Below, piece after piece: positions 43,809 through 63,617 of a stretch of 64,000 nt of DNA. Each line of letters opens with the position of its first letter. Position 1 is the first letter of the stretch. This stretch comes from an uncultured Candidatus Cloacimonadota bacterium (GTDB lineage: Bacteria; Cloacimonadota; Cloacimonadia; JGIOTU-2), in contig CAYNOU010000002.1 of the NCBI GenBank assembly GCA_964398885.1, positions 22,762-86,761 of the forward strand, in the 5' to 3' direction. Under the pieces are notes generated by a model. The model saw only the letters and a list, made by a program, of their open reading frames with translations, searched no databases and was not told the origin of the DNA. The position numbers were made by a program, and so were the translations under genes.

Positions 43809-43973
43809 TAATGACTTTGTTGATTTAATGATTTGGAGATTTGGTGATTTTAATTTTAAGCTCCATAAATCGCCATACAAGCTCAAACTCCACTTGGAGG
43901 ATACATACAAGACTTCCGAAATTCAGTAAATTCTTGAAAAAATTGAATTAATCAACAGACTCATTAATTTAGG

Positions 43974-46298: not shown

Positions 46299-46307
46299 TT
46301 ATTTCCT

Positions 46308-46619
46308 TTAACTATCTAAAATTATCTTAAAACCTTTGGTAAAATCTTTGTTAATAATAGCTACTAATGTCAACTTTTGTCTGCCAAAAATCTTACTTAA
46401 TTCTTCATCTGGAAAAATGTAGGAAATTTGAATACCTTTTTGCTTATATATCTCACAGTTTCGTCTTAGAAAATTACTATTCTTTTTCCCGGAAAATATC
46501 AACCTGGTGTTACTGCCGGCAATACTCTTTTTCACTGCTATCCTGCCGAAAGCAACTGCTTTAGCCTTTCTTGCCAGTCTTAATAAGTTAGTTATTTTTT
46601 CTTTCTTTTTTTCATCCAT
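46308..46619 (-). CDS. L7Ae/L30e-family RNA-binding protein (YlxQ-like).
   Basis: 103 aa between ylxR and infB, which is the conserved position. KAKAVAFGRIAVKK is an L7Ae-like motif. Confidence 0.55.
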   Translation of the reverse strand: MDEKKKEKITNLLRLARKAKAVAFGRIAVKKSIAGSNTRLIFSGKKNSNFLRRNCEIYKQKGIQISYIFPDEELSKIFGRQKLTLVAIINKDFTKGFKIILDS

Positions 46620-46813
46620 TTTTCAAGTTTGTTCATACAATTTACATCTGAACAACAATAATATCCTCTGCCAGGCATTCTTTGTTTGTAATCGAAAACA
46701 ATAGAATCATTTTTTATTATAAATCTTACTAAATTTGATTTCTCTCTTTTTCTTTTGCAGATAACGCAAGTCCGCTTTGGAATATGTCCTGCATTACTTG
46801 CTTTATTCACCAT
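46592..46813 (-). CDS. YlxR/DUF448 family protein.
   Basis: IPKRTCVICKRKREKSNLVRF is the RTCxxC motif characteristic of YlxR. It lies immediately after nusA. Confidence 0.7.
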   Translation of the reverse strand: MVNKASNAGHIPKRTCVICKRKREKSNLVRFIIKNDSIVFDYKQRMPGRGYYCCSDVNCMNKLEKWMKKRKKK

Positions 46814-48049
46814 TTAAAAATACCTGGCAGATTCTTTAATTTTTTCAGCTATTTTTACACCAATACCTTCAATTCGGCAAAGTTCTTGCATAGAAGCAAG
46901 ATGGATATCTTGAACAGAGGTATAACCCGCATTATGTAATATCATTCCAATGTTTTCAGTAACACCTTCAAGTTCAAAGACTGTGCTTGTAATTCTGCGT
47001 TCATCAGCTGAGATTTCTTCATATTCATCTTCTAATAAAACATCCAATTTATAATTAGTAAGTTTTGCAGCTAATTTGATATTTTTACCACCTTTGCCAA
47101 TTGCAATATTTTTGTTTTTTTCATCAGTAATTATTTGAGCGAATTTTCCTTTATCAGCTAAATAGACCCTTTTTACCAACTCACTTCCAATACTATTCTT
47201 AATGAGTTGCTCATGATTTTCACTCCAAACAATTATATCAACCTGTTCTCCATGAAGTTCCTTTTTTATCTCTTCTATTCTCATACCTTTTGGTCCAACA
47301 CAACTTCCAAATGCATCAATATTTTTGTTAGTACTATAAACAGCAACTTTGGTTCTATATCCTGGCTCTCTTACGATTTTCTTAATCACAACATCCCCGT
47401 CCAAAATTTCTGGAATCTCACTTTCAAATAATTTTATTATAAACTCTGGCCTCCTTCTTGAAAGTATTACCCTTACTCTTCCTTTTTGATGTCTAATATT
47501 AGCAATATATGCTTTAATATAATCACCGGTTTTATAAAATTCAGTCTCAACTTGCTCTTCAGTTGGGAGTAGTCCTTCTGTGAAACCTATATCAACGATA
47601 TAACCATTATATTCCACTTTTTTTACAATACCGGATACAATTTGTCCTTTCTGTTTTTCATAATCAACTTTGATTTTTTTAGTTTCTGACTCCCTTATTT
47701 TGGTAATAATAGCCTGTCTTGCTGATTGAATTGTTTTCCTGCCAAATTCAGTAATAGGAATTTCAAATGGAATATAATCATCAATCTGGGCTGTTGGAAT
47801 AATCTTTTGAGCATCTTTAAGATTGATTTCATCAAAATTTTTCTTAACTTCTTCAACTACCTTTGCAGATAATCTGGCAACTACTTTGTTCTCCTCAAAA
47901 TCAATTTCAACAGATAGTTCACAATCTGGATTTAATTTCTTTAATAATGTTGCTTTTAAACTATCTTTAATAATATCTGCAATAACTTCTCTTTTTATCT
48001 GTTTAAGCCTTGCAAATTCATCAATAATTGCAATCAAATTAAATCCCAT
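46814..48049 (-). CDS. nusA: Transcription termination/antitermination factor NusA.
   Basis: N-terminal domain + S1 (GQIVSGIVKKVEYNGYIVDIG) + KH domains. 411 aa. It follows rimP. Confidence 0.9.
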   Translation of the reverse strand: MGFNLIAIIDEFARLKQIKREVIADIIKDSLKATLLKKLNPDCELSVEIDFEENKVVARLSAKVVEEVKKNFDEINLKDAQKIIPTAQIDDYIPFEIPITEFGRKTIQSARQAIITKIRESETKKIKVDYEKQKGQIVSGIVKKVEYNGYIVDIGFTEGLLPTEEQVETEFYKTGDYIKAYIANIRHQKGRVRVILSRRRPEFIIKLFESEIPEILDGDVVIKKIVREPGYRTKVAVYSTNKNIDAFGSCVGPKGMRIEEIKKELHGEQVDIIVWSENHEQLIKNSIGSELVKRVYLADKGKFAQIITDEKNKNIAIGKGGKNIKLAAKLTNYKLDVLLEDEYEEISADERRITSTVFELEGVTENIGMILHNAGYTSVQDIHLASMQELCRIEGIGVKIAEKIKESARYF

Positions 48050-48057
48050 CTTGCTCC

Positions 48058-48549
48058 CTAATTCTTTTTACTTTCTTTTTTAGAGAATTCAGAGGTCCAG
48101 TTAAAAACTGTTCTTGCGTTTTTTACCTGTTCATAAAATATATTAATATTTTTTTTCTCATCTAATTTAATAGAGATAGAGTATTCATCAGCCGATGCAA
48201 GAATGCCTTTTACTGTCTCTATTTCATCCTTATTATTCAGATATTTAAGCTTAACCAGTTCATCTACAGCGTCAATAAAATGCTGAGGAGTTCTTAAATT
48301 TCTACTAAGACCAGGAGATGAAACTTCCAAAACATATCTTGAATCAAATATGTCTCTCATATCCAATTCATCTCCAATCTCCTGGCTAACTGCTTGGCAA
48401 TCAACTAAAGTAATACCATTTTTCCGGGTTATATAGACGACCAGAGACTGATTATTACGAATTCCTCTTAATTTCCAATCATAGAGTTGCACATTCATTT
48501 TATTGCATACTTTTTTAATAATATCTTCTAAAATTTCATTATTTTTCAT
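48058..48549 (-). CDS. rimP: Ribosome maturation factor RimP.
   Basis: 163 aa, first gene of the nusA operon. The central ...VSSPGLSR... motif is conserved. Confidence 0.8.
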   Translation of the reverse strand: MKNNEILEDIIKKVCNKMNVQLYDWKLRGIRNNQSLVVYITRKNGITLVDCQAVSQEIGDELDMRDIFDSRYVLEVSSPGLSRNLRTPQHFIDAVDELVKLKYLNNKDEIETVKGILASADEYSISIKLDEKKNINIFYEQVKNARTVFNWTSEFSKKESKKN

Positions 48550-52312: not shown

Positions 52313-53302
52313 CTACTTCATTAAAATCATTTTCTTGGCAGAATGATATTGTCCTGTGTTAATTAGGTAGTAATAAATGCCACTTGAAACAGAGTTTCCA
52401 TTCTCATCAGAGCCATCCCAAATAACAGTATATTCTTTTGCACTACAATTTCTATCTAAAAGTGTCCTGATTTTTTGACCACTTACATTATAAACAGCAA
52501 TAGTAACATGAGATGGTTTTTTTAGAGTGAAAGCAATTTTTGTTTCTGAATAGAATGGATTCGGAAAGTTTGCTTGAAATACCGTATTAGCATTAATAGC
52601 ATTATCATCAACTGAACCAGGTTCTATTAAGTCATCTGGAGTTCTGGGATTCAATCCATATTCATCATAGCTATAATCAACACAACCTCTTATTATTTCC
52701 CATACCATACCCACAGTAATTACAATAGGTGGAACAACCTCGTCTAAATAAAAGAATCCATCATCAATTTGAGCAATTCCAGTACCATCATGAACTAACC
52801 ATTGTCCATATAAGTCTGGTTCTTGGATAACAGTTACATCATTCAACTCAACCAAAACACCTTCATAGGGTTCTCCAACACCCTCTGGGGCAAGGTCAGC
52901 ACAAGTGATAGAAGTTGCATCAGGAATAGGATTACCTGAACTCAATAAGGTTATAGTAATGGGGTCACTATAACCAGAAATTTCAGTCATTCCATAATAT
53001 TCATCTACAGTTCCTGTTACTTCTATTTCATCACCAGGAACGAGTGTTGTATCACCTGCCATATAAACAAGGATACCTTTCCAAGCACCACCTTCTGGCA
53101 TTGAAATAAAAAAGTTATCCTTATAATGTGCCCATTCTATAGCAGTAACAATTCCTGAAACTGTAACTACCAGTCCATCATAAGTTGAAGGATATGTATT
53201 ATCACTACCAGGTTCAGTTGTGTATTGAACCTTATAAATCGTTAAGGCAGAAAGACTTCCGACAAATAAGAATAAAACCAAAGCCATAACACACTTTTTC
53301 AT
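52313..53302 (-). CDS. Secreted protein with a T9SS (Por) C-terminal sorting domain.
   Basis: Signal peptide MKKCVMALVLFLFVGSLSA. The C-terminus FPNPFYSETKIAF...GIYYYLINTGQYHSAKKMILMK matches the T9SS C-terminal sorting-domain consensus. Confidence 0.6.
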   Translation of the reverse strand: MKKCVMALVLFLFVGSLSALTIYKVQYTTEPGSDNTYPSTYDGLVVTVSGIVTAIEWAHYKDNFFISMPEGGAWKGILVYMAGDTTLVPGDEIEVTGTVDEYYGMTEISGYSDPITITLLSSGNPIPDATSITCADLAPEGVGEPYEGVLVELNDVTVIQEPDLYGQWLVHDGTGIAQIDDGFFYLDEVVPPIVITVGMVWEIIRGCVDYSYDEYGLNPRTPDDLIEPGSVDDNAINANTVFQANFPNPFYSETKIAFTLKKPSHVTIAVYNVSGQKIRTLLDRNCSAKEYTVIWDGSDENGNSVSSGIYYYLINTGQYHSAKKMILMK

Positions 53303-53424
53303 AAATACCTCCGTTTTTTATTTAATTCAATTTACATTTTTTGTAAAAGAGATGTCAAGCACTTTCTGTTATATACATATTTTTTCTTGGTGAAATGCAC
53401 CCACCAATAAATATAAAAATTAAC

Positions 53425-53467
53425 CAAAACCTACCTCCCTTGAATTTGGTTAAGGGAGGTTTTTATA
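53425..53467. terminator. Intrinsic terminator hairpin downstream of the minus-strand gene 53545..54597.
   Basis: acctcccttgaatttggttaagggaggt followed by tttttat. On the minus strand the same stem is followed by aggttttgg. Confidence 0.5.
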
Positions 53468-53544
53468 TTAACGAAATATTATTAATTATATTGTTGAATA
53501 AATTTTATATTATTACTAAATATATAATTTCAATTTTGGTGAGC

Positions 53545-54597
53545 TTATCTCATAATCACCATTTTCTTAACTTGAGAATTTTCTACACCACCGAGTTTAT
53601 AAAAATAAATTCCATTCTGAACTGGTATTCCATTATCATCCAGTCCATTCCAACCAACTGAACCAGAGTCGTTTTCTATCAGTAAGTTGCTGAATCCTTT
53701 AACCTTTTGTCCTTTAACATTATAAATTACAATATCTGCTTTTTGGGCCTGTTTTCTATTTAATCTATAGGAAATCACTGTAGTTGAATTAAATGGGTTT
53801 GGATAGTTTTGAATTAGTTTATATTCAGTTGAACTGATTGAGGTTTCATCAACATCTACAAAGGGTTGAGTAAGATATGAAAGATAAGAAGACATCAGAG
53901 TTGCTTTTGTATTGGGTCTGGCACCATCAATCATTGCTCCCAGAAGTGATGATGTAAAAATTGTATGATATTGACCTTCTCCGTCATAACAAACTCCACG
54001 ACCTTTTTCGTCCTGAGAAATGAAAAAGAGTGTACCTTTATCAGCCCCAATCTCATCAACTGAATAATCGGAGTCAGAACCATATTGATAATTAAACTCG
54101 TAGTCTTCTGCAAATGTTCCATCTACCCCAAACAAACTCTGAACATTATAAGCATAACCATCACCATCGTAATTACAACCGAAATAGCTAAAAAGGTCAG
54201 TAAAATAATGATCAGAAGCAAAGTCTACGCCCTCAACATAAACAGCTTTACCAGAATTCAAAAAATCAACAAGCCTTTGTTGCTCGACCGAGCCAATTAC
54301 TCCAGGAGGAGTAGAACCTCACCCCAAACACCAATGACCAAGTGTAACAAATATCAGGTCGTAATTTGATAGGTCTGAAGGTAAGTAAGAAAAAGTGGCA
54401 TAACTTTCACCATTAGTCATCAAAGCCTGTTGTAAAGCATATTGACAACCAACATATCCTGCTCCTTCTGGATCATTTATATAAGAACCATTATCGTTAT
54501 CCCAAATTAAAATTTCTAGTCCTATGACAATTTGAGGTATAATAAATAACATTATTACGAAACACAAAATTATTGAATATTGTTTAATAATTTTCAT
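53545..54597 (-). pseudogene. T9SS-sorted secreted protein interrupted by a single in-frame TGA (54319-54321). It is either a pseudogene or sequencing error, or a selenocysteine codon in a CLG-U context.
   Basis: The 92-aa ORF has a signal peptide and the 238-aa ORF has the T9SS C-terminal sorting domain. They are in the same frame and separated only by TGA: ...GHWCLG*GSTPPGVIG... It is adjacent to the sel operon. Confidence 0.5.
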
Positions 54598-54857
54598 GAT
54601 ACACCTCTTTTTGATTTTAATATCAAAATAAAAAACAAATTAATAAAATAATTGTCAAGAAAAATCTAACGATAAGCTTTCTAATAAAAAAATTTAACCC
54701 CAAATTTCGCGGAGTAGACACAAATTCACCCTGTTAGATGTTTACTATCTAACGGGGGAACCACAAAGATAATAAGTAACTCAGTGAATTCTGTCACGCA
54801 ATGTAGGGATTCTCTATGGTTAATTTCGGTTTATAGCTCTATAAATTTACTATCACT

Positions 54858-57056
54858 TTATTTAACAAAAATTTTTCCAGTGCCTTTGGAAATTACTTTT
54901 CCAATTTTTGAAAATCCTTGAATTCCCTTTTTCTGAAATTTGTCTATTAATTCTATACATTCATCTTCTGGAATAGAAACTAACAAACCACCAGAAGTTT
55001 GTGCATCGGATAAAAGAACTTTCTGAACATAAGAAATGGAAGAACTCCATTCTACAATTGGCTCAACAAATTTCAAATTGGATAAAGTCCCTCCAGGAAT
55101 GACATTTCCAGCTGCAAATTCAACTGCGCCATTAAGGAGTTTTACCTTGTCAGCAAATACTTCAACATTCACATCACTCGCTTTAGTCATTTCAGATAAA
55201 TGCCCCAATAAACCAAAACCCGTCACATCTGTGCATCCATGAACTGTAAAATCATTTAATATTTGAGATGTGTAATTATTCAAAGTTTCCATTGTCTCAA
55301 CTAATTCTGTTTTTTGACTTTCAGAAAGTAATCCTCTTTTTAAAGCAGTTGATAATATTCCTGTTCCAATTGGTTTTGTAAGAAGAATTACATCACCAAG
55401 TAGCATACCTACATTTTTCCAAATTTTTTCTGGATGAACAAGACCAACTACAACCATACCATATTTCGGTTCTGTATCTTCAATAGAATGTCCACCAATA
55501 ACAGTTATTCCCGCCTCTTTAGCTTTCTCATTTGCACCTTGTAAAATCTTCTCTAACACACTCATAGGTAACCGATTCGTAGGAAATCCAACTATATTCA
55601 ATCCAAATAATGGTTTTGCACCCATTGCATAAATGTCACTTAAGGCATTTGCTGTAGCTATCATTCCAAAATCAAAAGGATTATCTACAATAGGAGTAAA
55701 GAAATCCACAGTAACAACAACCGCAGTATTATCATCAATTTTATAAACAGCAGCATCATCAGCAGTATTTGTACTTACTAAAATATTAGTATCAACTGGA
55801 ATCGGCAATTTTTGTAATATTGTTTCCAATATCTGTGGTTCAATCTTACAAGCACATCCCATTCCGTGAGTAAAATGAGTTAATTTGATTTCTTCTCTCA
55901 TATCAATTATAATATGATCTTTCTTTGCTTGAAATTTTTGCACAGTTTTAATAATAATTTCTGCTGCTTGCTCAATTTCTTCTTCAGTTGTAAATTTACC
56001 CGTAGAAAATCGAATAGTTCCCATTGAATAATCGATAGGCACATTCATAGCTTGCAAAACAGCCGAAACATCTATCCTGTCAGAATGGCACGCAGCACCA
56101 GCAGAAGCTGCAACTCCACTCATTTCAGAAAGAATAGTGTTCGCTTCGATTTTATAAAATCCTAAACTTAAAGTATTAGGCAAACCTTTTTCTGGATGCC
56201 CATTCAAACGAAAATCAAGATTTGATTCAGTGAGCTTTTCATGTAACAGGTCCCTCATCTTCTTCATATGTTTACAATTTTTATCCAGATCATTACCTGC
56301 AATTTCGCATGCTTTACCTAAGCCAACAATTTCCAATACATTTTCTGTCCCGGGACGCAAATTCTGCTCCTGATTTGCTCCATGTATTAGTTTCTGCAAT
56401 CTTGTTCCTCTTTTTATATAAAGAGCACCAACACCTTTGGGTGCATATAATTTATGACCTGCAATTGAAAGGAGATCTACTCCTAATTCTTTTACATCCA
56501 CTTTAATTTTGCCCATAGATTGAGCTGCATCTGTATGGAAGTAAACATTGTATTTTTTTGCAACTTTTGATATGTCTTCAATTGGCTGAATCGTTCCAAC
56601 CTCATTATTTGCATGCATAATTGTAATCAAAATAGTTTGAGGAGTAATAGCTTTTTCAACATCATCTGGGTTAACCAAACCATATTCATCTACAGGTAGA
56701 TATGAAATATTGAGTCCCTGTGATTCTAAATATTCACAAACTTCTATTACTGAAGGATGCTCAATTGAAGAGGTTATAATATGATTTCCCCTATCTTTAT
56801 GAGACAATGCAATCCCTTTGATTGCAAAATTATTGGATTCAGAACCACCACTTGTAAAGATAATCTCATCAGAATGAGCATTAATCATATTTGCAACTTG
56901 TTTGCGTGCATTTTCAACAGCTTTTTTTGTTTGAATTCCATACCAGTGCATACTTGAAGGATTACCAAAATGATTATCTAAAAAAGGTCTCATAGCTTGT
57001 GCTACTTCAGGTGCAATTGGAGTTGTTGCATTATAATCTAAATATATTGGTTTCAT
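54858..57056 (-). CDS. selD: Fusion protein: NifS-like cysteine desulfurase / selenocysteine lyase (N-terminal) fused to selenide, water dikinase SelD (C-terminal).
   Basis: N-terminal half: LDYNATTP...SSMHWYG...FTSGGSESNN, a class V aminotransferase. C-terminal half: THGMGCACKIEP (the SelD GCxCK motif, Cys-type), then a PurM-like fold. 732 aa. Confidence 0.8.
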   Translation of the reverse strand: MKPIYLDYNATTPIAPEVAQAMRPFLDNHFGNPSSMHWYGIQTKKAVENARKQVANMINAHSDEIIFTSGGSESNNFAIKGIALSHKDRGNHIITSSIEHPSVIEVCEYLESQGLNISYLPVDEYGLVNPDDVEKAITPQTILITIMHANNEVGTIQPIEDISKVAKKYNVYFHTDAAQSMGKIKVDVKELGVDLLSIAGHKLYAPKGVGALYIKRGTRLQKLIHGANQEQNLRPGTENVLEIVGLGKACEIAGNDLDKNCKHMKKMRDLLHEKLTESNLDFRLNGHPEKGLPNTLSLGFYKIEANTILSEMSGVAASAGAACHSDRIDVSAVLQAMNVPIDYSMGTIRFSTGKFTTEEEIEQAAEIIIKTVQKFQAKKDHIIIDMREEIKLTHFTHGMGCACKIEPQILETILQKLPIPVDTNILVSTNTADDAAVYKIDDNTAVVVTVDFFTPIVDNPFDFGMIATANALSDIYAMGAKPLFGLNIVGFPTNRLPMSVLEKILQGANEKAKEAGITVIGGHSIEDTEPKYGMVVVGLVHPEKIWKNVGMLLGDVILLTKPIGTGILSTALKRGLLSESQKTELVETMETLNNYTSQILNDFTVHGCTDVTGFGLLGHLSEMTKASDVNVEVFADKVKLLNGAVEFAAGNVIPGGTLSNLKFVEPIVEWSSSISYVQKVLLSDAQTSGGLLVSIPEDECIELIDKFQKKGIQGFSKIGKVISKGTGKIFVK

Positions 57057-57058
57057 AA

Positions 57059-59002
57059 CTATCTTCCAATTTCTTTATACCCTTTTTCAGTAATAACTCT
57101 ATAATCCCCTTTTCGGATGGTAATACCTTCGCTATCAAATTGGGTAAGCATCAAAAGACATATTTTACGATTCCCTTCAATCAAATCGCGGAACTCAGAA
57201 ATTTTTATACCCTGAGGATTATCATTAAGATATTTTAATAGTTTTTCTCTTGCGCCATTAATAACAGAGGAATGAATAAAATTCCCATCAATATTACACA
57301 ACTTCCCTTTATTTATTAGCAATCCAATAATTTGTTTTATCTTCTTATCATTATAACCTTTTTTCTCAGCAATGGAGCATAAATCAGATAAGAGTGGGGT
57401 TTTCATCCCTGAATTTTTAAAGTAATTTTCCACAAATGCTATTTGCTTCTCATCATCTTTAGATATATTTAATTTATGGGTTTTCAAAGCCCATGTATTT
57501 TGGATTTGTTTTATTTTTCCTTCATCTTCAAGCTTTTTCATAATAATTTGAATCCATTTGTCATTTGATGAATCGTTTTTCATTCCAAACAAACCGACTA
57601 ATTCCTTAAAAGTTTTTCCCGTTTCTAAAAACGGATTTTTTTTATGATATTCTTTCAGATTTTCAAGAATCCTTTTTTCAGTTCTGCTTTTCTCTTCTTT
57701 TTTAAAAAGAAATATATTCTTATCTGATGATAGAATAGAAATATCTTCAGGTATAGACTTAAAAATTATCTCTCTAATTTTTTCTTCTGGTAAATTCAGT
57801 TTTTTTGCAATATATTCATAATTTAACGGATACAAACTTTTTCTAACTTCTGTAGCAATTAATTCAGATATATCACCAGAAGCAATTTTATAGAGCTTGT
57901 TAATTACATTTTCATTTCTTCTACGATGATGAAGTGGATGTGCATCAAGCACAATTCCCCCACCAAGAGTTAATTCGGACGAGGTATTTCGTAGAACAAA
58001 TTTATCACCGTAAAAAGCAATACAAGGAGAATCAAGATGTATCTGAACAATACCACTTTGTCTCGGTTTCAAAATTTCTTTATCAATAAGATGTATTTTT
58101 GCTTGTGCCTGCAATGTACCCAAAAGAAATATTGCTTGTGACCATCTGCCAAAACTGCTATTGTGATTAAACAAAGTAATTTTTGCATCAATCATATCTG
58201 TTGTCTGTAAAGGCATATTAGAGATAAGCATTCCTCTTGAAAAATTTTCTTTATTCAATCCTATCAGATTCAAAGAAGCTCTATCTCCAGCAGTTATTTC
58301 CTCAACCTGGGTTCCATGACGCTCCATTCTACGAATTCTCAACTTTTTTGCATTAGGCAGAAGATAAACTTTTTCATTATCTCTTAACTTACCACTAATA
58401 ACAGAGCCGTTTACAACGGTTCCAAAGCCTTTTACTGTAAATATCCTATCAATATACATTCTAAAAACATCACCAGTTGGTCGTTGTGGAATTTCTTCAC
58501 TAATTTTTACTAAAAGCTGCTTTAATTCCTCAATACCATATCCTGTTTTTGATGAAACTTTTATAATTGGAAATTCTTCAAGAAAAGTTCCTTTTATAAA
58601 ATCAGCAACTTCTTGTTCTACAATTTTGAGAAGCTCTTCATCTACAAGGTCAATCTTTGTTAAAGCTACAAATCCTTTTTTTATCCCAAGAATCTTCATA
58701 ACATTAAGATGCTCAACTGTTTGTGGCATAATTCCACTATCTGCAGCAATAACGAGCATAACAAAATCAATTCCGCTTGCTCCTGCAACCATAGTATTCA
58801 CAAAATCTTTATGACCAGGAACATCTATTATTCCAATACTCTGTCCATTTGGTAGCTCAATATGTGCGAAACCAAGATTAATGGTTATTCCTCTAATCTT
58901 TTCTTCTTTGTGAGTATCACATTCAATATTTGTTAAAGCTTTTATTAAAGCAGTTTTCCCATGGTCAATATGGCCTGCTGTTCCCATTATTAAATGTTTC
59001 AT
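57059..59002 (-). CDS. selB: Selenocysteine-specific translation elongation factor SelB.
   Basis: N-terminal G-domain MGTAGHIDHGKTALIKALT...DVPGHKDF...TKIDL. 647 aa with a C-terminal winged-helix extension. It lies between selA and selD. Confidence 0.85.
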   Translation of the reverse strand: MKHLIMGTAGHIDHGKTALIKALTNIECDTHKEEKIRGITINLGFAHIELPNGQSIGIIDVPGHKDFVNTMVAGASGIDFVMLVIAADSGIMPQTVEHLNVMKILGIKKGFVALTKIDLVDEELLKIVEQEVADFIKGTFLEEFPIIKVSSKTGYGIEELKQLLVKISEEIPQRPTGDVFRMYIDRIFTVKGFGTVVNGSVISGKLRDNEKVYLLPNAKKLRIRRMERHGTQVEEITAGDRASLNLIGLNKENFSRGMLISNMPLQTTDMIDAKITLFNHNSSFGRWSQAIFLLGTLQAQAKIHLIDKEILKPRQSGIVQIHLDSPCIAFYGDKFVLRNTSSELTLGGGIVLDAHPLHHRRRNENVINKLYKIASGDISELIATEVRKSLYPLNYEYIAKKLNLPEEKIREIIFKSIPEDISILSSDKNIFLFKKEEKSRTEKRILENLKEYHKKNPFLETGKTFKELVGLFGMKNDSSNDKWIQIIMKKLEDEGKIKQIQNTWALKTHKLNISKDDEKQIAFVENYFKNSGMKTPLLSDLCSIAEKKGYNDKKIKQIIGLLINKGKLCNIDGNFIHSSVINGAREKLLKYLNDNPQGIKISEFRDLIEGNRKICLLMLTQFDSEGITIRKGDYRVITEKGYKEIGR

Positions 59003-59188
59003 AATTTTTTACCGCGAATGTACGCTAATTTAAGCGAATATTTTTTCTTTGCCACGAATTTACCCCATGAAATCCTTCAAAGAAGGAATCCCAACACACC
59101 CGTTCTCCGTAGTCCCGATAAATCGGGACGAAGGATGAATCGGGATTATTTCACAGGGCAAGCACGAACTGGCACGAACATTTATGTA

Positions 59189-60577
59189 TCAATGTAAAAG
59201 GCATTTTTGTATTTCTTGTGATACATAATCTATATCTTCTTCATTAATTGTTAAAACATCAAAATGGATATTTCCTTCTCTGAGAATTCCAAGTATTGGC
59301 CTTTCTAAATGCAACAATTGTTTAAACAACTTTTCTGCAAAATTTTTCGTATTATCCTTGTTAATCAGCATTACTGAATAGCTATCTAATTTTAGACGAG
59401 GAAGGGTTCCTCCGCCACAATGTGCAATACTCTCTACTATTTCAGATTGTATATGAAATTTTGCTAACTCATTTTGTAATTTTTTTGCAATATTATAAAG
59501 CTCGGATTTACTTTTTTTTAGCATCCTATAAACAGGTATTTTTGTAAAAACATCTTCATCTTTAATATAATATCGCAACACTGTGGATAAAGCGGCAATA
59601 GTCATTTTACCCACTCGGAGTGCTCGCATAAGTGGAGCTTTTGAAAGTTTAGATATTAATTCCTTTTTACCTGCGATTATCCCTGCTTGAGGACCACCAA
59701 GTATTTTATCACAACTAAAAGTAACTAAATCTGTTCCGTAGTTTAGACTGGAAACAGCATCAGGTTCATTCCCAAAATGTAAATCTTTTTGTTTTCTTAT
59801 AAGTCCGGAGCCCAAATCATACATTAAAATCAGATTATATTTTCTTGCAAGCTTTGATAATTCTTTTAGTTCTACCTCTTCTGTAAAGCCTTCTATATAG
59901 TAATTTGATTTATGAACTTTTAAAATGATTCTTGTATCACCAGTAATTGCATTTTCATAATCTGATATTCTGGTTCTGTTTGTTGTGCCAACTTCAACCA
60001 TTTTTGCACCGCTTGCCTTCATTATATCAGGAATCCTGAAAGAACCACCAATTTCTATCAATTCTCCACGAGATATAATTGCTTCTTTATTTTCAGCAAA
60101 AGTTTTTAAACAGAGCAGGACTCCAGCGGCATTATTATTAACCACAACTGCATCTTCTGCTTTTGTAACAAATTTAATTAATTCTGAAATGTGTTTATTT
60201 CTCTGCCCTCTTTTACCTTTATCTAAATCAAATTCTAAATTAGAATATCCAAGTATGATTGGTTCTAATTCTTTTAGAACATCTTTACCAAGTGGAGCTC
60301 TTCCAAGATTTGTATGAAGTATAATTCCAGTTGCATTGACCATTGGTTTAAGTGATTTTTTGGTTATAGATTGGATAATAACTTTAATATCCTCAATAAT
60401 TTGGTTTAAGTTTTTTGCAGGCTTTGCTTTTAAAACATTTTTTCTATACTCATCCAAAATTTGTCTAATTGAATATGTAATCAAATCATTTCCAAATTTG
60501 TTTTTCAATTTCATTATTTCAGGATGATTTAATAATTTATCCACGCCGGGAATCTTTTTAAGTTCTTCTTTACACAT
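59189..60577 (-). CDS. selA: L-seryl-tRNA(Sec) selenium transferase (selenocysteine synthase).
   Basis: MCKEELKKIPGVDKLL...NATGIILHTNLGRAPL...NNNAAGVLL...RGELIEIGGSFRIPDIM...VGTTNRT are SelA hallmarks. The start is placed at ATG 60575-60577, because the track GTG lies inside a repeat. Confidence 0.85.
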   Translation of the reverse strand: MCKEELKKIPGVDKLLNHPEIMKLKNKFGNDLITYSIRQILDEYRKNVLKAKPAKNLNQIIEDIKVIIQSITKKSLKPMVNATGIILHTNLGRAPLGKDVLKELEPIILGYSNLEFDLDKGKRGQRNKHISELIKFVTKAEDAVVVNNNAAGVLLCLKTFAENKEAIISRGELIEIGGSFRIPDIMKASGAKMVEVGTTNRTRISDYENAITGDTRIILKVHKSNYYIEGFTEEVELKELSKLARKYNLILMYDLGSGLIRKQKDLHFGNEPDAVSSLNYGTDLVTFSCDKILGGPQAGIIAGKKELISKLSKAPLMRALRVGKMTIAALSTVLRYYIKDEDVFTKIPVYRMLKKSKSELYNIAKKLQNELAKFHIQSEIVESIAHCGGGTLPRLKLDSYSVMLINKDNTKNFAEKLFKQLLHLERPILGILREGNIHFDVLTINEEDIDYVSQEIQKCLLH

Positions 60578-60587
60578 AGTTAATCCT

Positions 60588-60648
60588 AAAAAATTTGCCA
60601 CAGATTTAGACCAATCAAAAAAATGATTACCTTTATTTCTGTGGCAAA
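60588..60648 (-). terminator. Hairpin (11-bp stem TTTGCCACAGA/TCTGTGGCAAA, about 32-nt loop) plus a U6 run between tRNA-Sec and the selA RBS. Terminator-like or a processing element.
   Basis: The minus strand reads tttgccacagaaataaaggtaatcatttttttgattggtctaaatctgtggcaaatttttt aggattaact ATG. It uses the family-B TTGCCACAGA motif as an inverted repeat. Confidence 0.4.
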
Positions 60649-60662
60649 CAATAAAATTATAA

Positions 60663-60757
60663 AGCCGAGAGGGCAGGAATCGAACCTGCCACAGACGGTT
60701 TTATCCGCCCACTACTGATTTTGAAGACCAGTTGGAACACCAGTTCCATCCTCTCAA
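60663..60757 (-). tRNA. selC: tRNA-Sec (selC), anticodon UCA.
   Basis: Minus-strand fold: 8-bp acceptor (TTGAGAGG/CCTCTCGG), 6-bp D-stem TGGAAC/GTTCCA with the 4-nt loop TGGT, 6-bp anticodon stem with loop CTTCAAA (UCA at 34-36), a long variable arm, and a 5-bp T-stem GCAGG/CCTGC with loop TTCGATT. About 94-95 nt. CCA is not encoded. Confidence 0.75.
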
Positions 60758-60795
60758 ATAAATTTTATGATATTATTTTATGATTCTTTGTGAGC

Positions 60796-62730
60796 TTATC
60801 GCATTATCACCATTTTTCTTACCTGAGATTTTTCAGAATTAGAAATTTTATAGAAATATACACCATTGCTAACTGCATTTCCATTTGTATCTGTTCCATC
60901 CCAGACAATCTCACCATAATTTCCTTCAAAAGGAAGGTTATTAAATTCTTTTACAATATCACCTTTAATATTATAAATAATGATTTTTGATTTTCTACTC
61001 GGCTTTATGTTATAAGAAATATTTGTCTCGGAGTTAAATGGATTTGGAAAATTCTGCAGCAAGCCTGAATTGTTATTTATCGCAGAATCAACACTATGTG
61101 GTTGATCAAAATATAAAGCACCCATATCTGCAACAGTTCCATCAGGGTCTGGTGGAGAAGCTGGATCTCCTGCGTCAATACACGGAGAACCTTCTAATAA
61201 ACTCCAGGATGCTTCAAGACCATTGTAACTCGTTCCACTTCCTGCTGTTGGATTCTCAAACATTGGGTCTTCATTGATATTTCCAGTTCCACTATAACCA
61301 CCTGATATACAAGTATAGGTTACATAAACAGTACTACCAAATAGATTGAATACATCTAAGTCGTCAATTAGGATACAATTGTTAACTGTTGCAGAAGAAG
61401 ATGCAAACCACATTGCTCCATAACCATAGGTAGATTCATTATTTGCTATTGTGTTGTTAATCATAGTCGGGTTTGATGAGTTTTTTAAACTAATTGCACC
61501 AGCGAAACCTGCAGTATTATTAACGATTATATTATGAGAAATCAGAGGATTTGCATTATCACAAACAATTCCTGCACAAAGAATTGAACTTGTATTATTG
61601 GCTATTAGGTTTTTATAAATATACACACTATCTAAACCAATTACATTAATTGCTGCGCCTTTCTGGGTTGTAGTTAAATTCTCATAAATAGTGTTTTCAA
61701 TAATATCAACTTTTGAATTTTCAATATCTACTGCACAATAAGTGGCATTAGTTATTTCACAATTCTGAATAAGATTGTCTTCCATAGTATTAAAGAATTG
61801 AATACCTTTCCAACTATCATTTGATGTGAAAATTATAGGACCTTTTCCAGAAGCATCAGCAACTATTTTTCCTTCAACTTTTATCTTGCTATTATTATTT
61901 GTAATTATTTGAACATCAGGTTCAATAGTAAGTTCACAGCCATCTGGAATTGATACATCATCAGTGATAGTATAAGGGCTAAAAGCTGTATTCCAGACAC
62001 CAGCAACAGTTCCCGAAATATTATTACTATTAGTAACAGTGATGTAGTCCTCTTGAGTAATACTTGCACTATCAGCACCACTCCAAACAGTTAGAGATAC
62101 ATCATAAGATCCAACATCAGTATAAAGGAAAAATGGATTTTCTTCGTTACTGTCAATTAAGCCATCACCATCAAGATCCCAAGCCCATGTATCTGCACTA
62201 CCCGCTGTACTATGGAATTGAACTCCTAATGAAGGAGGTCCTGTTTGTATACTTGCATCAAATCCTGCCATTAATCCTAAAGATGCAATCGCATCATCTA
62301 AATATGTTGAGAAATTTACATTATTCTCACCATAATATAGTTGATATTCACCACCAATAACTGCAAAGAATGGTACATAGCCATTACCATAATCCCAATA
62401 TAAAGAGCTAATATCAGAAGAATGATAAAATGTACAATTATAAGGTGGAATACTCCAATCATTTTCAGATAGGAAGTAAACATGTCCACCGGGGTTATAT
62501 GTTTGCCACATAGCTTCTAATTGCGGCGCCGCCGCAACACAGCCACCTCAACTATAACCTCCCCAGAAAAAGACTACCGCTTTTTCTGCGTTGATCAATT
62601 CATATATTGAATGCGGTGCTCCAGTATTATCAGTCCAACTAAAATCATCTACAACATCGCCTACTTGGTATACTGCAAACAATGAACTTGCAAATACCAA
62701 AAATGCGAAAAGGGTAATTGCTTTTTTCAT
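60796..62730 (-). CDS. Candidate selenoprotein. Order of domains: signal peptide, thioredoxin/TlpA-like redoxin domain with a U-x-x-C motif (Sec at the in-frame TGA 62548-62550), PKD-like domain, beta-helix repeats, T9SS C-terminal sorting domain.
   Basis: The signal-peptide ORF and the 571-aa ORF are in the same frame and separated only by TGA: ...EKAVVFFWGGYS-U-GGCVAAAPQLEAMWQTY..., a redoxin pattern with FW..xCxxC. A SECIS-like hairpin starts 10 nt downstream. sel genes lie immediately downstream. The C-terminus FPNPFNSE...KMVIMR is a T9SS sorting domain. Confidence 0.6.
62521..62537 (-). promoter_or_regulatory. Putative bacterial SECIS element: GC-rich hairpin 10 nt 3' of the in-frame UGA.
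   Basis: Plus strand ttgcggcgccgccgcaa (8-bp inverted repeat). The mRNA reads UGA GGUGGCUGUG UUGCGGCGGCGCCGCAA. It is a conspicuous 100% GC core in a roughly 30% GC genome. Confidence 0.45.
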
Positions 62731-62876
62731 CTTATACTCCTTTAATTTTATTTAATTCCATAAAATGAATTTTACACATCTTATGAAATCATTTTTTACT
62801 ATATTAGTCTTTTAAATAAAATTTTGTCAAAAAATATTATAATTTTTTTAAATTTATTTATGATTGATTTTGCAAT

Positions 62877-63617
62877 TTATCTCAAAAGTAGCATTTTTTT
62901 TGTTTCTTGATAACTCCCAACTTTTAATGAATAGAAATATATTCCGTTTGCAAGTTTTCTACCATTTGCATTTGTGCCATCCCATACAACTTCTTTAATT
63001 TTTTCCCGAGTATAATTGGGATTAATTTTTAATTCTTTTATTAGTTGCCCTTTCAGGTTGAATATTTCAACAATTGGGTCTTTATGTGTGGGTTTATCAA
63101 GATAAAATGAAATAGTTGTTGAAAAAGAAAAAGGATTGGGATAATTTTGTGATAAATTGCAAGTTAAGGGAATATTGACATCATCTATACTATTTTCTGT
63201 TGCATATGAAAAATTTATTGTATCTGGCTCACTAATTGAAGGGGACTCAAAGATGAACTGAAAGGTAAAACTTCCAGTAGAACTAACTGTTATGGTAAAA
63301 TCAAGATTAAGTGTATCACCACTTACAAATTCAAATTGCCATGGCCATCCGAGCATATGGCATACTCCTGAACCATGAAGTTCATGACACCAGATCATAG
63401 ACCAATCTGATGGTATATTTTGAGCTTCAACATTTACTGTGAATGTATCTGTTTGACCATTATTGATAACATAAAAAAAATCTGATGTAAAAATATAAGT
63501 GCTATCTGTATAAGGAGGTCCCACAACATTTGGATTGAATGGAATGTTAACTTCTAAGTCAGCAATGAGCAGATTTGCACAAAATAAGATTATTGATAAT
63601 GTTAATATTTTTTTCAT
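62877..63617 (-). CDS. Secreted protein with a T9SS C-terminal sorting domain.
   Basis: Signal peptide MKKILTLSIILFCANLLIA. C-terminus NYPNPFSFSTTISF...GIYFYSLKVGSYQETKKMLLLR. Confidence 0.6.
   Translation of the reverse strand: MKKILTLSIILFCANLLIADLEVNIPFNPNVVGPPYTDSTYIFTSDFFYVINNGQTDTFTVNVEAQNIPSDWSMIWCHELHGSGVCHMLGWPWQFEFVSGDTLNLDFTITVSSTGSFTFQFIFESPSISEPDTINFSYATENSIDDVNIPLTCNLSQNYPNPFSFSTTISFYLDKPTHKDPIVEIFNLKGQLIKELKINPNYTREKIKEVVWDGTNANGRKLANGIYFYSLKVGSYQETKKMLLLR

What the first reader, a model, noticed from the sequence alone, without database searches (positions are those of the whole stretch)
54858..60757. Complete selenocysteine-decoding cluster: tRNA-Sec(UCA) - selA - selB - nifS::selD
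On the minus strand, a 94-95 nt tRNA has the tRNA-Sec hallmarks: 8-bp acceptor stem, 6-bp D-stem with a 4-nt loop, anticodon loop CUUCAAA (UCA), a long variable arm, and a 5-bp T-stem. It is followed in the same orientation by SelA, SelB and a SelD fusion. This establishes that the organism decodes UGA as Sec. It also gives context for the two TGA-interrupted T9SS genes that flank the cluster.
Basis: partly seen in the sequence, partly recalled or inferred. Interest (0 to 1): 0.7.

Follow-up and report, generated by a model that had tools for sequence, protein, structure and literature searches.

The report
Selenocysteine operon flanked by secreted selenoproteins
This is a genuine, complete gene set for inserting selenocysteine at UGA codons in an uncultured Cloacimonadota bacterium; the machinery is an ordinary known kind, but the two genes on either side of it are real selenium-containing proteins that appear to be exported by the type IX secretion system, which is the less expected part.

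Summary
Confirmed. On the minus strand, 54858-60757 holds tRNA-Sec(UCA), selA, selB and a nifS::selD fusion. ARAGORN and Rfam call the tRNA. All three proteins clear curated equivalog cutoffs.

One correction: comparison with relatives and the literature favours the published "Cloacimonetes-type" 7+5 tRNA-Sec (G73, one-nucleotide acceptor/D linker), not the 8-bp acceptor stem claimed.

The NifS-SelD fusion (Cys form) is a rare architecture already described in Caldithrix and Geobacter. About a dozen 50%-identity clusters exist among 1.84 billion representatives.

Both flanking T9SS genes are real selenoprotein genes, not pseudogenes.
- Upstream gene: a TlpA-like thioredoxin fold with S-U-G-G-C. 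I found seven Sec forms, two TGC (Cys) forms, and a GC-rich SECIS hairpin starting 11 nt after UGA that has decayed in the Cys forms.
- Downstream gene: an orphan domain with C-x-x-U. The TGA is kept in all 8 loci read. All 15 database gene calls are fragments consistent with a break there, and no Cys form was found among 5.8 billion proteins.

TGA is an ordinary stop in 12 of 47 window ORFs, so the code is not reassigned.

Verdict: a known kind of system, newly seen in this lineage and well anchored. The T9SS-cargo selenoproteins are a modestly novel by-product. Interest 0.4.

The parts
60664..60757 (-). selC, tRNA-Sec with anticodon UCA. Best read as 60665..60756 (92 nt, U1 to G73) in a 7+5 'Cloacimonetes-type' fold. 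CCA is not fully encoded: G73 is followed by CUUU.
   Evidence: ARAGORN; Rfam RF01852 58.3 bits > GA 47; fold; alignment and pair counts with relatives; coordinates checked; literature PMC5330540.
59189..60601 (-). selA, L-seryl-tRNA(Sec) selenium transferase. The ORF opens at GTG 60601; the likely real start is ATG 60577 (MCKEELKK...). It ends with an ordinary TGA stop.
   Evidence: TIGR00474 551.7 bits (cutoff 267.9), PF03841 447.9 bits, Se-cys_synth_N; 73% identical to Cloacimonadota MAG SelA; start region.
57059..59002 (-). selB, Sec-specific elongation factor with C-terminal winged-helix SECIS-binding domain.
   Evidence: TIGR00475 362.3 bits (cutoff 242.25); GTP_EFTU, GTP_EFTU_D2, Beta-barrel_SelB, SelB-wing_3 43.7 bits.
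54858..57056 (-). nifS::selD fusion, 732 aa. The N-terminal PLP cysteine-desulfurase / Sec-lyase-like domain (aa 1-380, 55917..57056) has PLP Lys in 'SIAGHK' (K202) and catalytic Cys in 'SAGAACHS'. The C-terminal selenophosphate synthetase domain (aa ~386-732, 54861..55901) has the Cys-form active loop 'HGMGCACK'. The ATG lies 2 nt after the selB stop.
   Evidence: Aminotran_5 281 bits; AIRS and AIRS_C; TIGR00476 374.7 bits (cutoff 125); NF002098 374.5 (cutoff 299); IscS-subfamily NF002806 322 (cutoff 304); NifS equivalog TIGR03402 487.5 < 530.75; motifs; conserved as one 732-aa ORF in L001 (89%), L031/L032 (100%), L033 (81%).
60796..62730 (-). Upstream client selenoprotein gene, 644 aa. Layout: signal peptide, TlpA/AhpC-TSA-like thioredoxin fold with S-U-G-G-C, PKD, right-handed beta-helix region, T9SS C-terminal sorting domain. 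Its stop is 38 nt from the tRNA-Sec.
   Evidence: Translation; Pfam/NCBIfam: PKD, Por_Secre_tail (TIGR04183 30.3 > 23), AhpC-TSA 24.8 bits sub-threshold; Cys homologues P0003 'WCGPC' and PDB 3hcz 'QCGHC' align to U; orthologues with TGA or TGC.
62548..62550 (-). Sec codon (UGA) of the upstream selenoprotein.
62520..62538 (-). SECIS hairpin of the upstream gene, GUUGCGGC-GGC-GCCGCAAU. The conserved 7-bp core begins 11 nt after UGA (10-nt spacer); the 8-bp reading reported here begins one nucleotide earlier. It is 76% GC in a 32% GC genome.
   Evidence: Folds; RNAalifold with 4 pairs showing compensatory change; apical CGGC-GG(C/U)-GCCG kept in all 7 Sec forms and degraded in the Cys forms; codon-usage improbability 2e-5.
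53545..54597 (-). Downstream client selenoprotein gene, 350 aa. Layout: signal peptide, orphan ~220-aa domain with 'LGHWC-L-G-U-G' (CxxU), T9SS C-terminal sorting domain.
   Evidence: Translation; Por_Secre_tail TIGR04183 34.2 > 23; 7 orthologues each with one in-frame TGA at the same column; CARDB-fused variant also keeps TGA; no Pfam or PDB match for the N-domain.
54319..54321 (-). Sec codon (UGA) of the downstream selenoprotein.
54282..54313 (-). Candidate SECIS region of the downstream gene: two small hairpins, UACUCC-UCCU-GGAGUA at +9..+24 and GCUC-GGUC-GAGC at +29..+40. This assignment is tentative.
   Evidence: Folds; RNAalifold finds no hairpin shared by the whole family; the second hairpin is shared with L033.

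Best explanation
This is the selenocysteine-insertion operon of a Candidatus Cloacimonadota bacterium. Two of its client genes sit immediately beside it, all on one strand, in this order: T9SS selenoprotein (UxxC), selC, selA, selB, nifS::selD, T9SS selenoprotein (CxxU).

Mechanism. Gene identities are shown here; the biochemistry is inferred from the established E. coli pathway.
1. Seryl-tRNA synthetase charges the 7+5-type tRNA-Sec with serine.
2. SelA converts Ser-tRNA-Sec to Sec-tRNA-Sec using selenophosphate.
3. Selenophosphate is made by the SelD domain of the fusion protein. The fused PLP-dependent NifS/IscS-like domain probably hands selenium directly to SelD, as an enzyme-bound perselenide taken from free selenocysteine.
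4. SelB-GTP binds Sec-tRNA-Sec and a SECIS hairpin just 3' of an in-frame UGA, and delivers Sec to the ribosome.

The two neighbouring genes are such UGA/SECIS genes. Their products carry a signal peptide and a type IX secretion C-terminal sorting domain. They are therefore predicted to be extracytoplasmic (surface or secreted) thiol/selenol redox proteins, with Sec in a CxxC-type motif.
For: Machinery:
- tRNA-Sec is called by two methods.
- SelA, SelB and SelD exceed curated equivalog cutoffs.
- Catalytic residues are intact: PLP Lys, NifS Cys loop, SelD GCxCK loop.
- The ORFs are intact and tightly spaced.
- The order selC-selA-selB-nifS::selD recurs in a Cloacimonadota MAG, with the fusion 89% identical.
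- selC-selA-selB recurs in Bacteroidales.

Clients, upstream family:
- 7 Sec forms (TGA) and 2 Cys forms (TGC) at the same codon.
- Sec aligns with the first Cys of CxxC in redoxin homologues.
- The SECIS hairpin shows compensatory changes and rare GCG/CCG codons.

Clients, downstream family:
- The TGA is kept in all 8 loci examined, down to about 50% identity, with protein conservation on both sides.
- All 15 database gene calls are fragments whose lengths and coverage fit a break at that TGA.

Code: TGA is a normal stop for 12 of 47 ORFs.

T9SS sorting domains pass TIGR04183 cutoffs.
Against: - No expression, 75Se or mass-spectrometry data exist.
- The SECIS of the downstream gene is not a single conserved hairpin. 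There are two structural subtypes and no covariation.
[quoted passage not shown] Whether this genome has a second selD cannot be seen from 64 kb; there is none in the window.
- The NifS domain misses the strict NifS equivalog cutoff.
- Position 1 of the tRNA is U (A in relatives) rather than the usual G1.
- T9SS export is inferred only from the C-terminal domain and a signal peptide judged by eye.
- Adjacency of the client genes to the operon is lineage-specific, not general.
Confidence: 0.9

Rival explanations
1. The fused NifS-SelD is not the cell's general selenophosphate synthetase. It acts only as a salvage enzyme, phosphorylating selenium released from free selenocysteine by its own NifS domain. 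A second, unfused selD elsewhere in the genome does the main job. On this reading the cluster is not strictly self-sufficient.
For: Mariotti et al. 2015, Suppl. S2, found that all NifS-SPS species they saw (Geobacter FRC-32, Caldithrix abyssi, Naegleria) also had another SPS, and proposed exactly this. The fusion is more conserved (89%) than SelA (73%) or SelB (64%) between the window and L001, which suggests a distinct constraint.
Against: The fusion occupies the selD slot of the operon, 2 nt after selB, and does so in several lineages. The SelD domain passes two SelD equivalog models with the active-site Cys and Lys intact. No second selD lies in the 64-kb window. That is weak evidence, because the rest of the genome is unseen.
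Confidence: 0.25
2. The two flanking T9SS genes are pseudogenes inactivated by nonsense mutations. Their position next to the sel operon is coincidental.
For: Automated gene callers split every member at the TGA. One orthologue (L041) does look frameshifted further downstream.
Against: The stop is always TGA, never TAA or TAG. It falls at the same codon in 7 + 8 independent sequences at 50-99% identity, with amino-acid conservation continuing on both sides. It lies within UxxC / CxxU. Cys orthologues use TGC at that codon. A conserved hairpin of rare codons follows it.
Confidence: 0.03
3. UGA is globally reassigned or read through as a standard amino acid (as in code 4 or code 25 lineages) rather than specifically recoded to Sec.
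For: The genome is AT-rich (32% GC), as are many UGA-reassigned lineages.
Against: 12 of 47 long ORFs in the window, including selA itself, terminate at TGA. Only two in-frame TGAs with long open frames on both sides exist in 64 kb, and both are in redox motifs. A full Sec machinery is present.
Confidence: 0.01
4. The tRNA-Sec has the canonical bacterial 8+5 fold, as the first reader and ARAGORN's boundaries imply, with U.G/U.G terminal pairs.
For: In the window itself, 5'-UU...GG-3' can form two U.G wobbles. In 3 of 4 distinct sequences the -1:73 positions could formally pair (C-G in two, U.G in one).
Against: It would make the discriminator C instead of the near-universal G73, and it would leave an internal A.G mismatch in three relatives. 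The invariant G is followed by an encoded CCA in L002, L005 and L006. The literature describes the Cloacimonetes type as 7+5 with one linker nucleotide missing, which is what is seen here: a single A between the acceptor and D stems.
Confidence: 0.12

Closest known systems
E. coli-type bacterial Sec-insertion system (selC, selA, selB, selD; fdhF SECIS)
   Same: All four components are present and pass family-specific models. The SECIS is a hairpin immediately 3' of UGA inside the coding sequence, with its conserved stem beginning 11 nt after UGA and G-G at the start of the loop. The comparison with fdhF spacing is from established knowledge, not tested here.
   Different: The genes are clustered in one operon with selC first. 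The tRNA has a 12-bp (7+5) rather than 13-bp (8+5) acceptor/T arm. SelD is fused to a NifS-like domain. No Rfam SECIS model matches.
Cloacimonetes-type tRNA-Sec (Mukai et al. 2016, Angew Chem, as summarised in Santesmasses et al. 2017, PMC5330540)
   Same: 7-bp acceptor plus 5-bp T stem, one nucleotide missing from the acceptor/D linker, G73, and selC next to selA-selB.
   Different: Nothing substantive. In this gene pair 1:72 is U.G (A-U or A.G in relatives), and CCA is not encoded. The same type is seen here in two Bacteroidales loci (L005, L006).
NifS-SPS (NifS-SelD) fusion proteins of Caldithrix abyssi (Cys form) and Geobacter sp. FRC-32 (Sec form); also Naegleria and Acanthamoeba (Zhang et al. 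2008, PMC2398784; Mariotti et al. 2015, PMC4561486)
   Same: N-terminal NifS-like PLP domain fused to C-terminal SelD, with Cys at the SelD active site as in Caldithrix.
   Different: Here the fusion is the terminal gene of the selC-selA-selB operon in Cloacimonadota. It is unknown whether a second, unfused SelD exists. The best 50%-cluster representatives are only 61% and 58% identical.
Thioredoxin-fold (TlpA/ResA/AhpC-TSA-like, 'thiol:disulfide' type) bacterial selenoproteins with UxxC
   Same: Sec replaces the N-terminal nucleophilic Cys of the CxxC motif. Cys-form orthologues and paralogues coexist.
   Different: The redox domain is the N-terminal module of a ~650-aa PKD / beta-helix protein with a T9SS sorting domain. 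No paper in the held library links selenoproteins with T9SS cargo.

Membership tests
tRNA-Sec (Rfam RF01852) | Covariance-model score above the gathering threshold, and a UCA anticodon | tested here: met
   58.3 bits vs GA 47; anticodon tca.
tRNA-Sec (Rfam RF01852) | 6-bp D stem with 4-nt loop, long variable arm, 5-bp T stem | tested here: met
   MFE fold and pair counts: each of these helices is about 96-100% paired across 4 distinct sequences.
Canonical bacterial 8+5 tRNA-Sec | 13-bp acceptor + T arm with G73 discriminator | tested here: not met
   With G73 (invariant, followed by CCA in 3 of 5 genes) the acceptor has 7 positions. An 8th pair would use G73 itself.
Cloacimonetes-type 7+5 tRNA-Sec | 12-bp acceptor + T arm, one linker nucleotide missing between the acceptor and D stems, G73 | tested here: met
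   Single A between the acceptor and D stems; 7+5; G73.
SelA (TIGR00474 / PF03841) | Equivalog HMM score above the curated cutoff over the full length | tested here: met
   551.7 bits vs 267.9, profile positions 1-454 of 455.
SelB (TIGR00475) | Equivalog HMM above cutoff, plus the C-terminal winged-helix SECIS-binding domain | tested here: met
   362.3 bits vs 242.25; SelB-wing_3 43.7 bits vs 23.2.
SelD (TIGR00476 / NF002098) | Equivalog HMM above cutoff, and an N-terminal loop with Sec/Cys and Lys (E. coli Cys17 / Lys20) | tested here: met
   374.7 bits vs 125 and 374.5 bits vs 299; loop 'HGMGCACK'.
NifS sensu stricto (TIGR03402) | Equivalog score above the curated cutoff | tested here: not met
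   487.5 bits < 530.75. It does pass the IscS-subfamily model NF002806 (322 > 304) and Aminotran_5. PLP Lys and catalytic Cys are present. It is therefore filed as an IscS/NifS-family desulfurase-like domain, not as NifS proper.
Selenocysteine lyase activity of the NifS-like domain | Preference for selenocysteine over cysteine, and selenium delivery to SelD | not testable with these tools
   Inferred from Lacourciere et al. 2000, as cited in PMC4561486. The SclA model scores only 118 bits vs a cutoff of 525.
Bacterial selenoprotein gene (upstream T9SS gene) | In-frame UGA conserved in orthologues, Cys-containing homologues at the same position, and a SECIS hairpin downstream | tested here: met
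   7 TGA forms and 2 TGC forms; P0003 and 3hcz have Cys aligned; hairpin with compensatory changes.
Bacterial selenoprotein gene (downstream T9SS gene) | In-frame UGA conserved in orthologues, with coding conservation on both sides | tested here: met
   8 of 8 loci keep TGA in 'C-x-x-U-G'.
Bacterial selenoprotein gene (downstream T9SS gene) | Cys-containing homologues, and a conserved SECIS | tested here: inconclusive
   No Cys form among 15 clusters in 5.8 billion proteins. There are two different hairpin subtypes and no covariation.
T9SS type A cargo (TIGR04183 / PF18962) | C-terminal sorting domain above cutoff, plus an N-terminal signal peptide | tested here: met
   30.3 and 34.2 bits vs cutoff 23. 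Hydrophobic N-termini were judged by eye. No signal-peptide predictor was available, and T9SS core genes were not looked for.
TlpA/AhpC-TSA/Redoxin thioredoxin fold (upstream gene N-domain) | Pfam score above the gathering threshold | tested here: inconclusive
   AhpC-TSA 24.8 bits < 26; Redoxin 20.6 bits < 26.6. However, it is 33% identical over 128 aa to P0003, which carries both domains, and the PDB best hit is a thiol-disulfide isomerase, 3hcz, at E = 0.008.

The most novel reading that the evidence does not exclude
The sel operon lies within a small 'selenoprotein island' whose clients are type IX secretion cargo. On this reading, Cloacimonadota (and, from locus L006, some Bacteroidales) export selenocysteine-containing redox proteins to the cell surface or the medium. 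One of these is an orphan family with a C-x-x-U motif in a domain that has no Pfam or PDB relative and no detectable Cys-form homologue, so it would be an obligate selenoprotein family not yet described. T9SS-exported selenoproteins would be a new cellular location and export route for bacterial selenoproteins.
Probability: 0.55. Interest if true: 0.55.

Novelty: new member of a known kind. Interest (0 to 1): 0.4.

Why it matters
The cluster shows that this Cloacimonadota lineage uses selenocysteine. The type genome of the phylum was scored as lacking the trait in Mariotti et al.'s tables. It also gives annotators the key to rescue genes that every pipeline currently splits at UGA; every database entry I found for both client families was truncated there.

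It adds an operon-embedded example of the rare NifS-SelD fusion. That bears on the open question of how selenium is delivered to selenophosphate synthetase.

The neighbours suggest that selenoproteins can be T9SS cargo, and they define a small Sec-only family of unknown fold. If verified, this would extend where, and for what, bacteria use selenium.

Tried and rejected
- Structure prediction of the orphan CxxU domain. 
- Profile search of that domain against PDB sequences gave only noise, E >= 0.33. Pfam found nothing for the N-domain at E <= 1.
- A second homologue search with the family profile, to find Cys forms or distant relatives, returned only the same small family.
- A permissive Rfam scan for curated SECIS families across 53400-63000 found none.
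- RNAalifold found no single conserved SECIS for the downstream family.
- Mukai et al. 2016 (PMC4833512) is not held, so the Cloacimonetes-type description is cited second-hand.
- A search for a second selD or nifS in the window found none.
- The promoter scan was uninformative: 38 sites against 47.7 expected.
- I considered and rejected pseudogenes, a global UGA reassignment, and an assembly artefact creating the fusion. The fusion is conserved as one ORF in four or more independent assemblies.

Full report
THE OBSERVATION

ARAGORN finds a single tRNA in the 64-kb window, tRNA-SeC(tca), at 60664..60757 on the minus strand. Rfam's tRNA-Sec model RF01852 matches 60667..60755 at 58.3 bits against a gathering score of 47 (E = 3e-9). 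The minimum-free-energy fold gives the expected cloverleaf:
- a 6-bp D stem with a 4-nt loop,
- a 6-bp anticodon stem with loop CUUCAAA,
- a 6-bp variable-arm stem,
- a 5-bp T stem.

Three intact ORFs follow in the same orientation, and all pass curated models.
- 59189..60601 is SelA: TIGR00474 551.7 bits against a cutoff of 267.9, and PF03841 447.9 bits.
- 57059..59002 is SelB: TIGR00475 362.3 bits against 242.25, with the SelB beta-barrel and the C-terminal SelB-wing_3 domain.
- 54858..57056 is a 732-aa fusion. Aminotran_5 covers aa 4-363. SelD covers aa 391-698, with TIGR00476 at 374.7 bits against 125 and NF002098 at 374.5 bits against 299.

Spacing is tight: 62 nt from the tRNA to selA, 186 nt from selA to selB, and 2 nt from the selB stop to the fusion's ATG.

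ONE CORRECTION: THE ACCEPTOR STEM

I aligned the gene with the tRNA-Sec genes of two Cloacimonadota MAGs and two Bacteroidales MAGs fetched through SelA and counted pairs.
- Six pairs (GAGAGG/CCUCUC) are conserved. One of them covaries: A-U becomes G-C in the Bacteroidales loci.
- The next pair out (1:72) is U.G in the window, A-U in L001, and A.G in L002, L005 and L006.
- The following 3' base is an invariant G. An encoded CCA comes after it in three of the five genes.

That G is therefore the discriminator G73, and the acceptor stem has seven positions. Only one nucleotide (A) separates it from the D stem.

[quoted passage not shown] 2016 (PMC5330540). With only four distinct sequences the call is not absolute, so I leave 0.12 on the 8+5 reading. 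In the window the CCA end is not encoded: G73 is followed by CUUU.

WHOSE GENOME

SelA is 73% identical to SelA of two "Candidatus Cloacimonadota bacterium" MAGs. The next best hits are Bacteroidales at 48%. The window has 31.8% GC.

The surroundings look like an ordinary chromosome:
- rimP-nusA-infB...truB-ribF,
- a polysaccharide-synthesis cluster,
- a TonB-dependent receptor,
- many proteins with type IX secretion C-terminal domains.

In MAG locus L001 the order tRNA-Sec, selA, selB, nifS::selD recurs. About 3.4 kb is inserted before the fusion there, and the fusion is 89% identical to the window's. The 732-aa fusion ORF is also found intact in three further assemblies, L031/L032 at 100% and L033 at 81%. 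It is therefore not an assembly or frameshift artefact.

THE NIFS-SELD FUSION

Catalytic residues are present in both halves:
- the PLP lysine in SIAGHK,
- the desulfurase cysteine loop SAGAACHS,
- the SelD N-terminal loop HGMGCACK, which is a Cys-form SelD and not itself a selenoprotein.

The N-terminal half misses the strict NifS equivalog cutoff (487.5 bits against 530.75) but passes an IscS-subfamily model (322 against 304). I therefore call it an IscS/NifS-family domain.

This architecture is already in the literature:
- Zhang et al. 2008 reported it in Geobacter sp. FRC-32, with Sec in the SelD site (PMC2398784).
- Mariotti et al. 2015 added Caldithrix abyssi (Cys form), Naegleria and Acanthamoeba (PMC4561486 and its Supplement S2).
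- Mariotti et al. cite Lacourciere et al. 2000 for NifS-like proteins delivering selenium to SelD.

Mariotti et al. also note that every fusion-bearing species had a second, unfused SPS. They speculate that the fusion may only phosphorylate NifS-delivered selenium. I cannot settle that point. There is no second selD in the window, and the rest of the genome is out of reach.

An exhaustive phmmer search of 1.84 billion 50%-identity representatives puts about a dozen full-length two-domain proteins at the top, for example P0017 (732 aa, 61% identity), P0018, P0021, P0023 and P0025. After those come ordinary ~380-aa desulfurases. The fusion is rare but recurrent.

THE NEIGHBOURS ARE CLIENT SELENOPROTEIN GENES

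A systematic scan finds only two in-frame TGAs in the window with long open frames on both sides that are not simply a gene's stop. They are at 62548-62550 and 54319-54321. TGA is an ordinary stop for 12 of 47 long ORFs, including selA, so the code is not reassigned.

Upstream gene (60796..62730, minus strand, 644 aa)

Its stop lies 38 nt from the tRNA. The protein has these parts:
- a hydrophobic signal-like N-terminus,
- the stretch ...VVFFWGGYS-U-GGCVAAAPQ...,
- a PKD domain,
- a beta-helix region,
- a T9SS sorting domain (TIGR04183, 30.3 bits against 23).

The N-domain is thioredoxin-fold. AhpC-TSA scores 24.8 bits, just under its cutoff of 26. The domain is 33% identical over 128 aa to P0003, a Redoxin/AhpC-TSA protein, and the PDB best hit is the thiol-disulfide isomerase 3hcz. 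In both homologues the Sec aligns with the first Cys of CxxC: WCGPC in P0003 and QCGHC in 3hcz.

Database gene calls P0001 and P0002 end exactly at ...FFWGG(LG/YS). Their contigs continue in frame after a TGA. A metagenome scan added four loci. Altogether there are seven Sec forms and two Cys forms:
- Sec (TGA): window, L030, L026, L040, L041, and the second tandem copies in L038 and L039.
- Cys (TGC): the first tandem copies in L038 and L039.

A hairpin follows the UGA after a 10-nt spacer: UUGCGGC-GGC-GCCGCAA in the window. The evidence for it is:
- It is 76% GC in a 32% GC genome.
- It is built from GCG GCG GCG CCG. GCG is 6.2% of Ala codons and CCG is 8.2% of Pro codons, so the chance of this codon choice for AAAP is 2e-5.
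- L026 has UAUCGGC-GGC-GCCGGUA, which keeps two pairs through changes on both sides (U-A to A-U, and G-C to U.G).
- RNAalifold reports four pairs with such compensatory changes.
- All seven Sec forms keep CGGC-GG(C/U)-GCCG at +16 to +26.
- The Cys forms read UGGC-AGC-GCCG, with two more stem mismatches. Their local folding energy is -2.8 kcal/mol, against -5 to -11.5 in the Sec forms. The loop G is lost through a synonymous GCG-to-GCA change.

The two Cys sequences are identical in this region, so this counts as one evolutionary event. The geometry, with the stem starting 11 nt after UGA and G-G opening the loop, matches what I recall for the E. coli fdhF mini-SECIS. That comparison is from memory and was not tested.

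Downstream gene (53545..54597, minus strand, 350 aa)

It starts 260 nt after the fusion's stop. The protein has a signal-like N-terminus, a domain of about 220 aa with no Pfam hit and no PDB sequence hit, and a T9SS sorting domain (TIGR04183, 34.2 bits against 23). The TGA sits in ...TLGHWC-L-G-U-GSTPPG....

- Two searches of 5.8 billion proteins return only 15 clusters in total.
- Thirteen are 225-239-aa or 339-aa fragments covering only the region downstream of the TGA. Two are 343-aa fragments covering only the region up to it.
- No full-length Cys form was found.
- I read the DNA of seven orthologues at about 50-99% identity. Each has exactly one in-frame TGA at the same column (TAA is the true stop), with strong conservation on both sides: ILIWDNDN...GAG.VGC.YA.QQAL...LG.WC..UG..PPG...VY.EGVDF....
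- A differently built protein, with a CARDB domain followed by this domain (P0013 / L042), also keeps C-V-G-U-G and continues in frame.
- In L033 the gene again directly follows nifS::selD. In L034-L037 it does not, and no sel genes lie within the fetched flanks of about 3 kb.

Its SECIS is unresolved. Four of six sequences share GGGCC-AGGUU-GGCUC, with GGU at +24 to +26. The window and L033 instead have GCUC-GGUC-GAGC at +29 to +40. There is no covariation.

A RECURRING THEME

L033 has a third T9SS protein downstream of nifS::selD, about 2.3 kb further on beyond the CxxU gene and an Rrf2-family gene:
- It reads ...SSG-U-PYC....
- A GC-rich hairpin, CAGCCCG-GGU-CGGGCUG, follows.
- It also has PKD and the sorting domain.

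The Bacteroidales locus L006 has such a gene immediately beside, and divergent from, its tRNA-Sec-selA-selB:
- It reads ...FFFNS-U-PTC....
- AhpC-TSA scores 49.5 bits.
- It has two PKD domains.
- Por_Secre_tail scores 55.8 bits.

T9SS cargo with a Sec-containing thioredoxin-fold head therefore turn up next to sel operons in two phyla. The linkage is not universal, however. L026 and L038-L041 have no sel genes nearby.

HOW IT MOST LIKELY WORKS

Shown here: the gene identities, the intact catalytic motifs, the conserved UGA positions, the Sec/Cys pairs and one SECIS.

Inferred from the established bacterial pathway:
1. SerRS serylates the 7+5 tRNA-Sec.
2. SelA converts Ser to Sec using selenophosphate.
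3. The SelD domain makes selenophosphate from selenium that is probably channelled from the fused NifS-like domain.
4. SelB-GTP-Sec-tRNA-Sec docks on the SECIS hairpin and decodes UGA.
5. The two neighbours are translated as full-length selenoproteins, exported across the inner membrane by the Sec translocon, and passed through the T9SS by their C-terminal domain.

At the cell surface or in the medium they would act as thiol/selenol-disulfide oxidoreductases. That function is well founded for the upstream TlpA-like protein. For the orphan CxxU domain it is a guess based on the motif alone.

COMPARISON WITH WHAT IS KNOWN, AND NOVELTY

The Sec machinery, the 7+5 tRNA type and the NifS-SelD fusion are all published kinds. 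This cluster is a new, well-documented member in a Cloacimonadota lineage. Candidatus Cloacimonas acidaminovorans is listed with no selenoproteins, SelA or SelD in Mariotti et al.'s tables.

UxxC thioredoxin-fold selenoproteins are also a known kind. I could not find in the held literature any link between selenoproteins and type IX secretion: two searches gave no relevant paper. I also found no description of the CxxU orphan family. A specialist would find the operon unsurprising and the T9SS clients mildly surprising.

SCORES

Interest is 0.4. Novelty is "new member of a known kind". The most novel reading not excluded is T9SS-exported selenoproteins including a Sec-obligate orphan family. 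I give it a probability of 0.55 of being both real and previously undescribed, with an interest of 0.55 if true.

DEAD ENDS

- Structure prediction of the orphan domain was blocked for the read-through sequence. It was useless for the permitted fragment alignment, at pLDDT 50.
- PDB profile, Pfam and Rfam SECIS searches were negative.
- The promoter scan was uninformative. It does show a terminator-like hairpin at 54715..54697 (minus strand), between the fusion's stop and the downstream gene. That suggests the downstream gene is a separate transcription unit.

Noticed in passing
L038:5941-9929 and L039:5941-9858: Tandem paralogues of the TlpA-like T9SS protein lie side by side in the same genome. 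The first copy has Cys (TGC, 'GLG-C-GGC') and the second has Sec (TGA, 'GSG-U-GAC'). This is a natural Sec/Cys pair in one locus.
   Followed up: partly
L033:4737-6896: A third kind of T9SS selenoprotein candidate ('SSG-U-PYC', a weak Omp28-like region, PKD, sorting domain) has a GC-rich hairpin CAGCCCG-GGU-CGGGCUG 14 nt after UGA. It lies downstream of nifS::selD, the CxxU selenoprotein gene and an Rrf2-family regulator gene.
   Followed up: partly
L006:7532-9379 (minus strand): In a Bacteroidales MAG, a TlpA-like 'FNS-U-PTC' protein with two PKD domains and a T9SS tail is encoded divergently right next to tRNA-Sec-selA-selB. The Bacteroidales tRNA-Sec also has the 7+5 layout with G73-CCA.
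   Followed up: partly
L001:13736-17091: In the closest MAG, about 3.4 kb separates selB from nifS::selD. The interval contains a duplicated fragment of the selB C-terminus (80% identity over 35 aa at 14434-14538) and only short ORFs. It may be a rearrangement or an insertion remnant.
   Followed up: no
L042:3001-4155: The orphan CxxU domain also occurs as the C-terminal part of a larger protein with a CARDB domain (P0013, P0016). The gene call again stops at the Sec codon.
   Followed up: yes
L041:5905-7852: This orthologue of the upstream selenoprotein keeps the TGA but appears frameshifted near residue 222; tblastn splits it into two frames. This could be a sequencing error or a real pseudogene.
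   Followed up: no
window 52313-53302, 62877-63617 and 16998-19304 (all minus strand): Further T9SS-sorted proteins without in-frame TGA lie around the cluster. One (52313-53302) has a weak ExeM/NucH-like nuclease N-terminal match. The region is unusually rich in T9SS cargo.
   Followed up: partly
window 40271-48549 (minus strand): A conserved housekeeping block: rimP, nusA, infB, small ORFs, a DHH/DHHA1 phosphoesterase, truB and ribF. This confirms a chromosomal rather than mobile context. A polysaccharide or LPS biosynthesis cluster (Wzz, SLBB export protein, MurJ-like flippase, glycosyltransferases, epimerases, heparinase II/III-like) spans roughly 9.7-31 kb.
   Followed up: partly
window 53433-53460 (+) and 54697-54715 (-): Terminator-like hairpins. 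One is an 11-bp stem between the two downstream T9SS genes. The other lies between the nifS::selD stop and the CxxU gene start, which suggests the sel operon and the downstream selenoprotein gene are separate transcripts.
   Followed up: no
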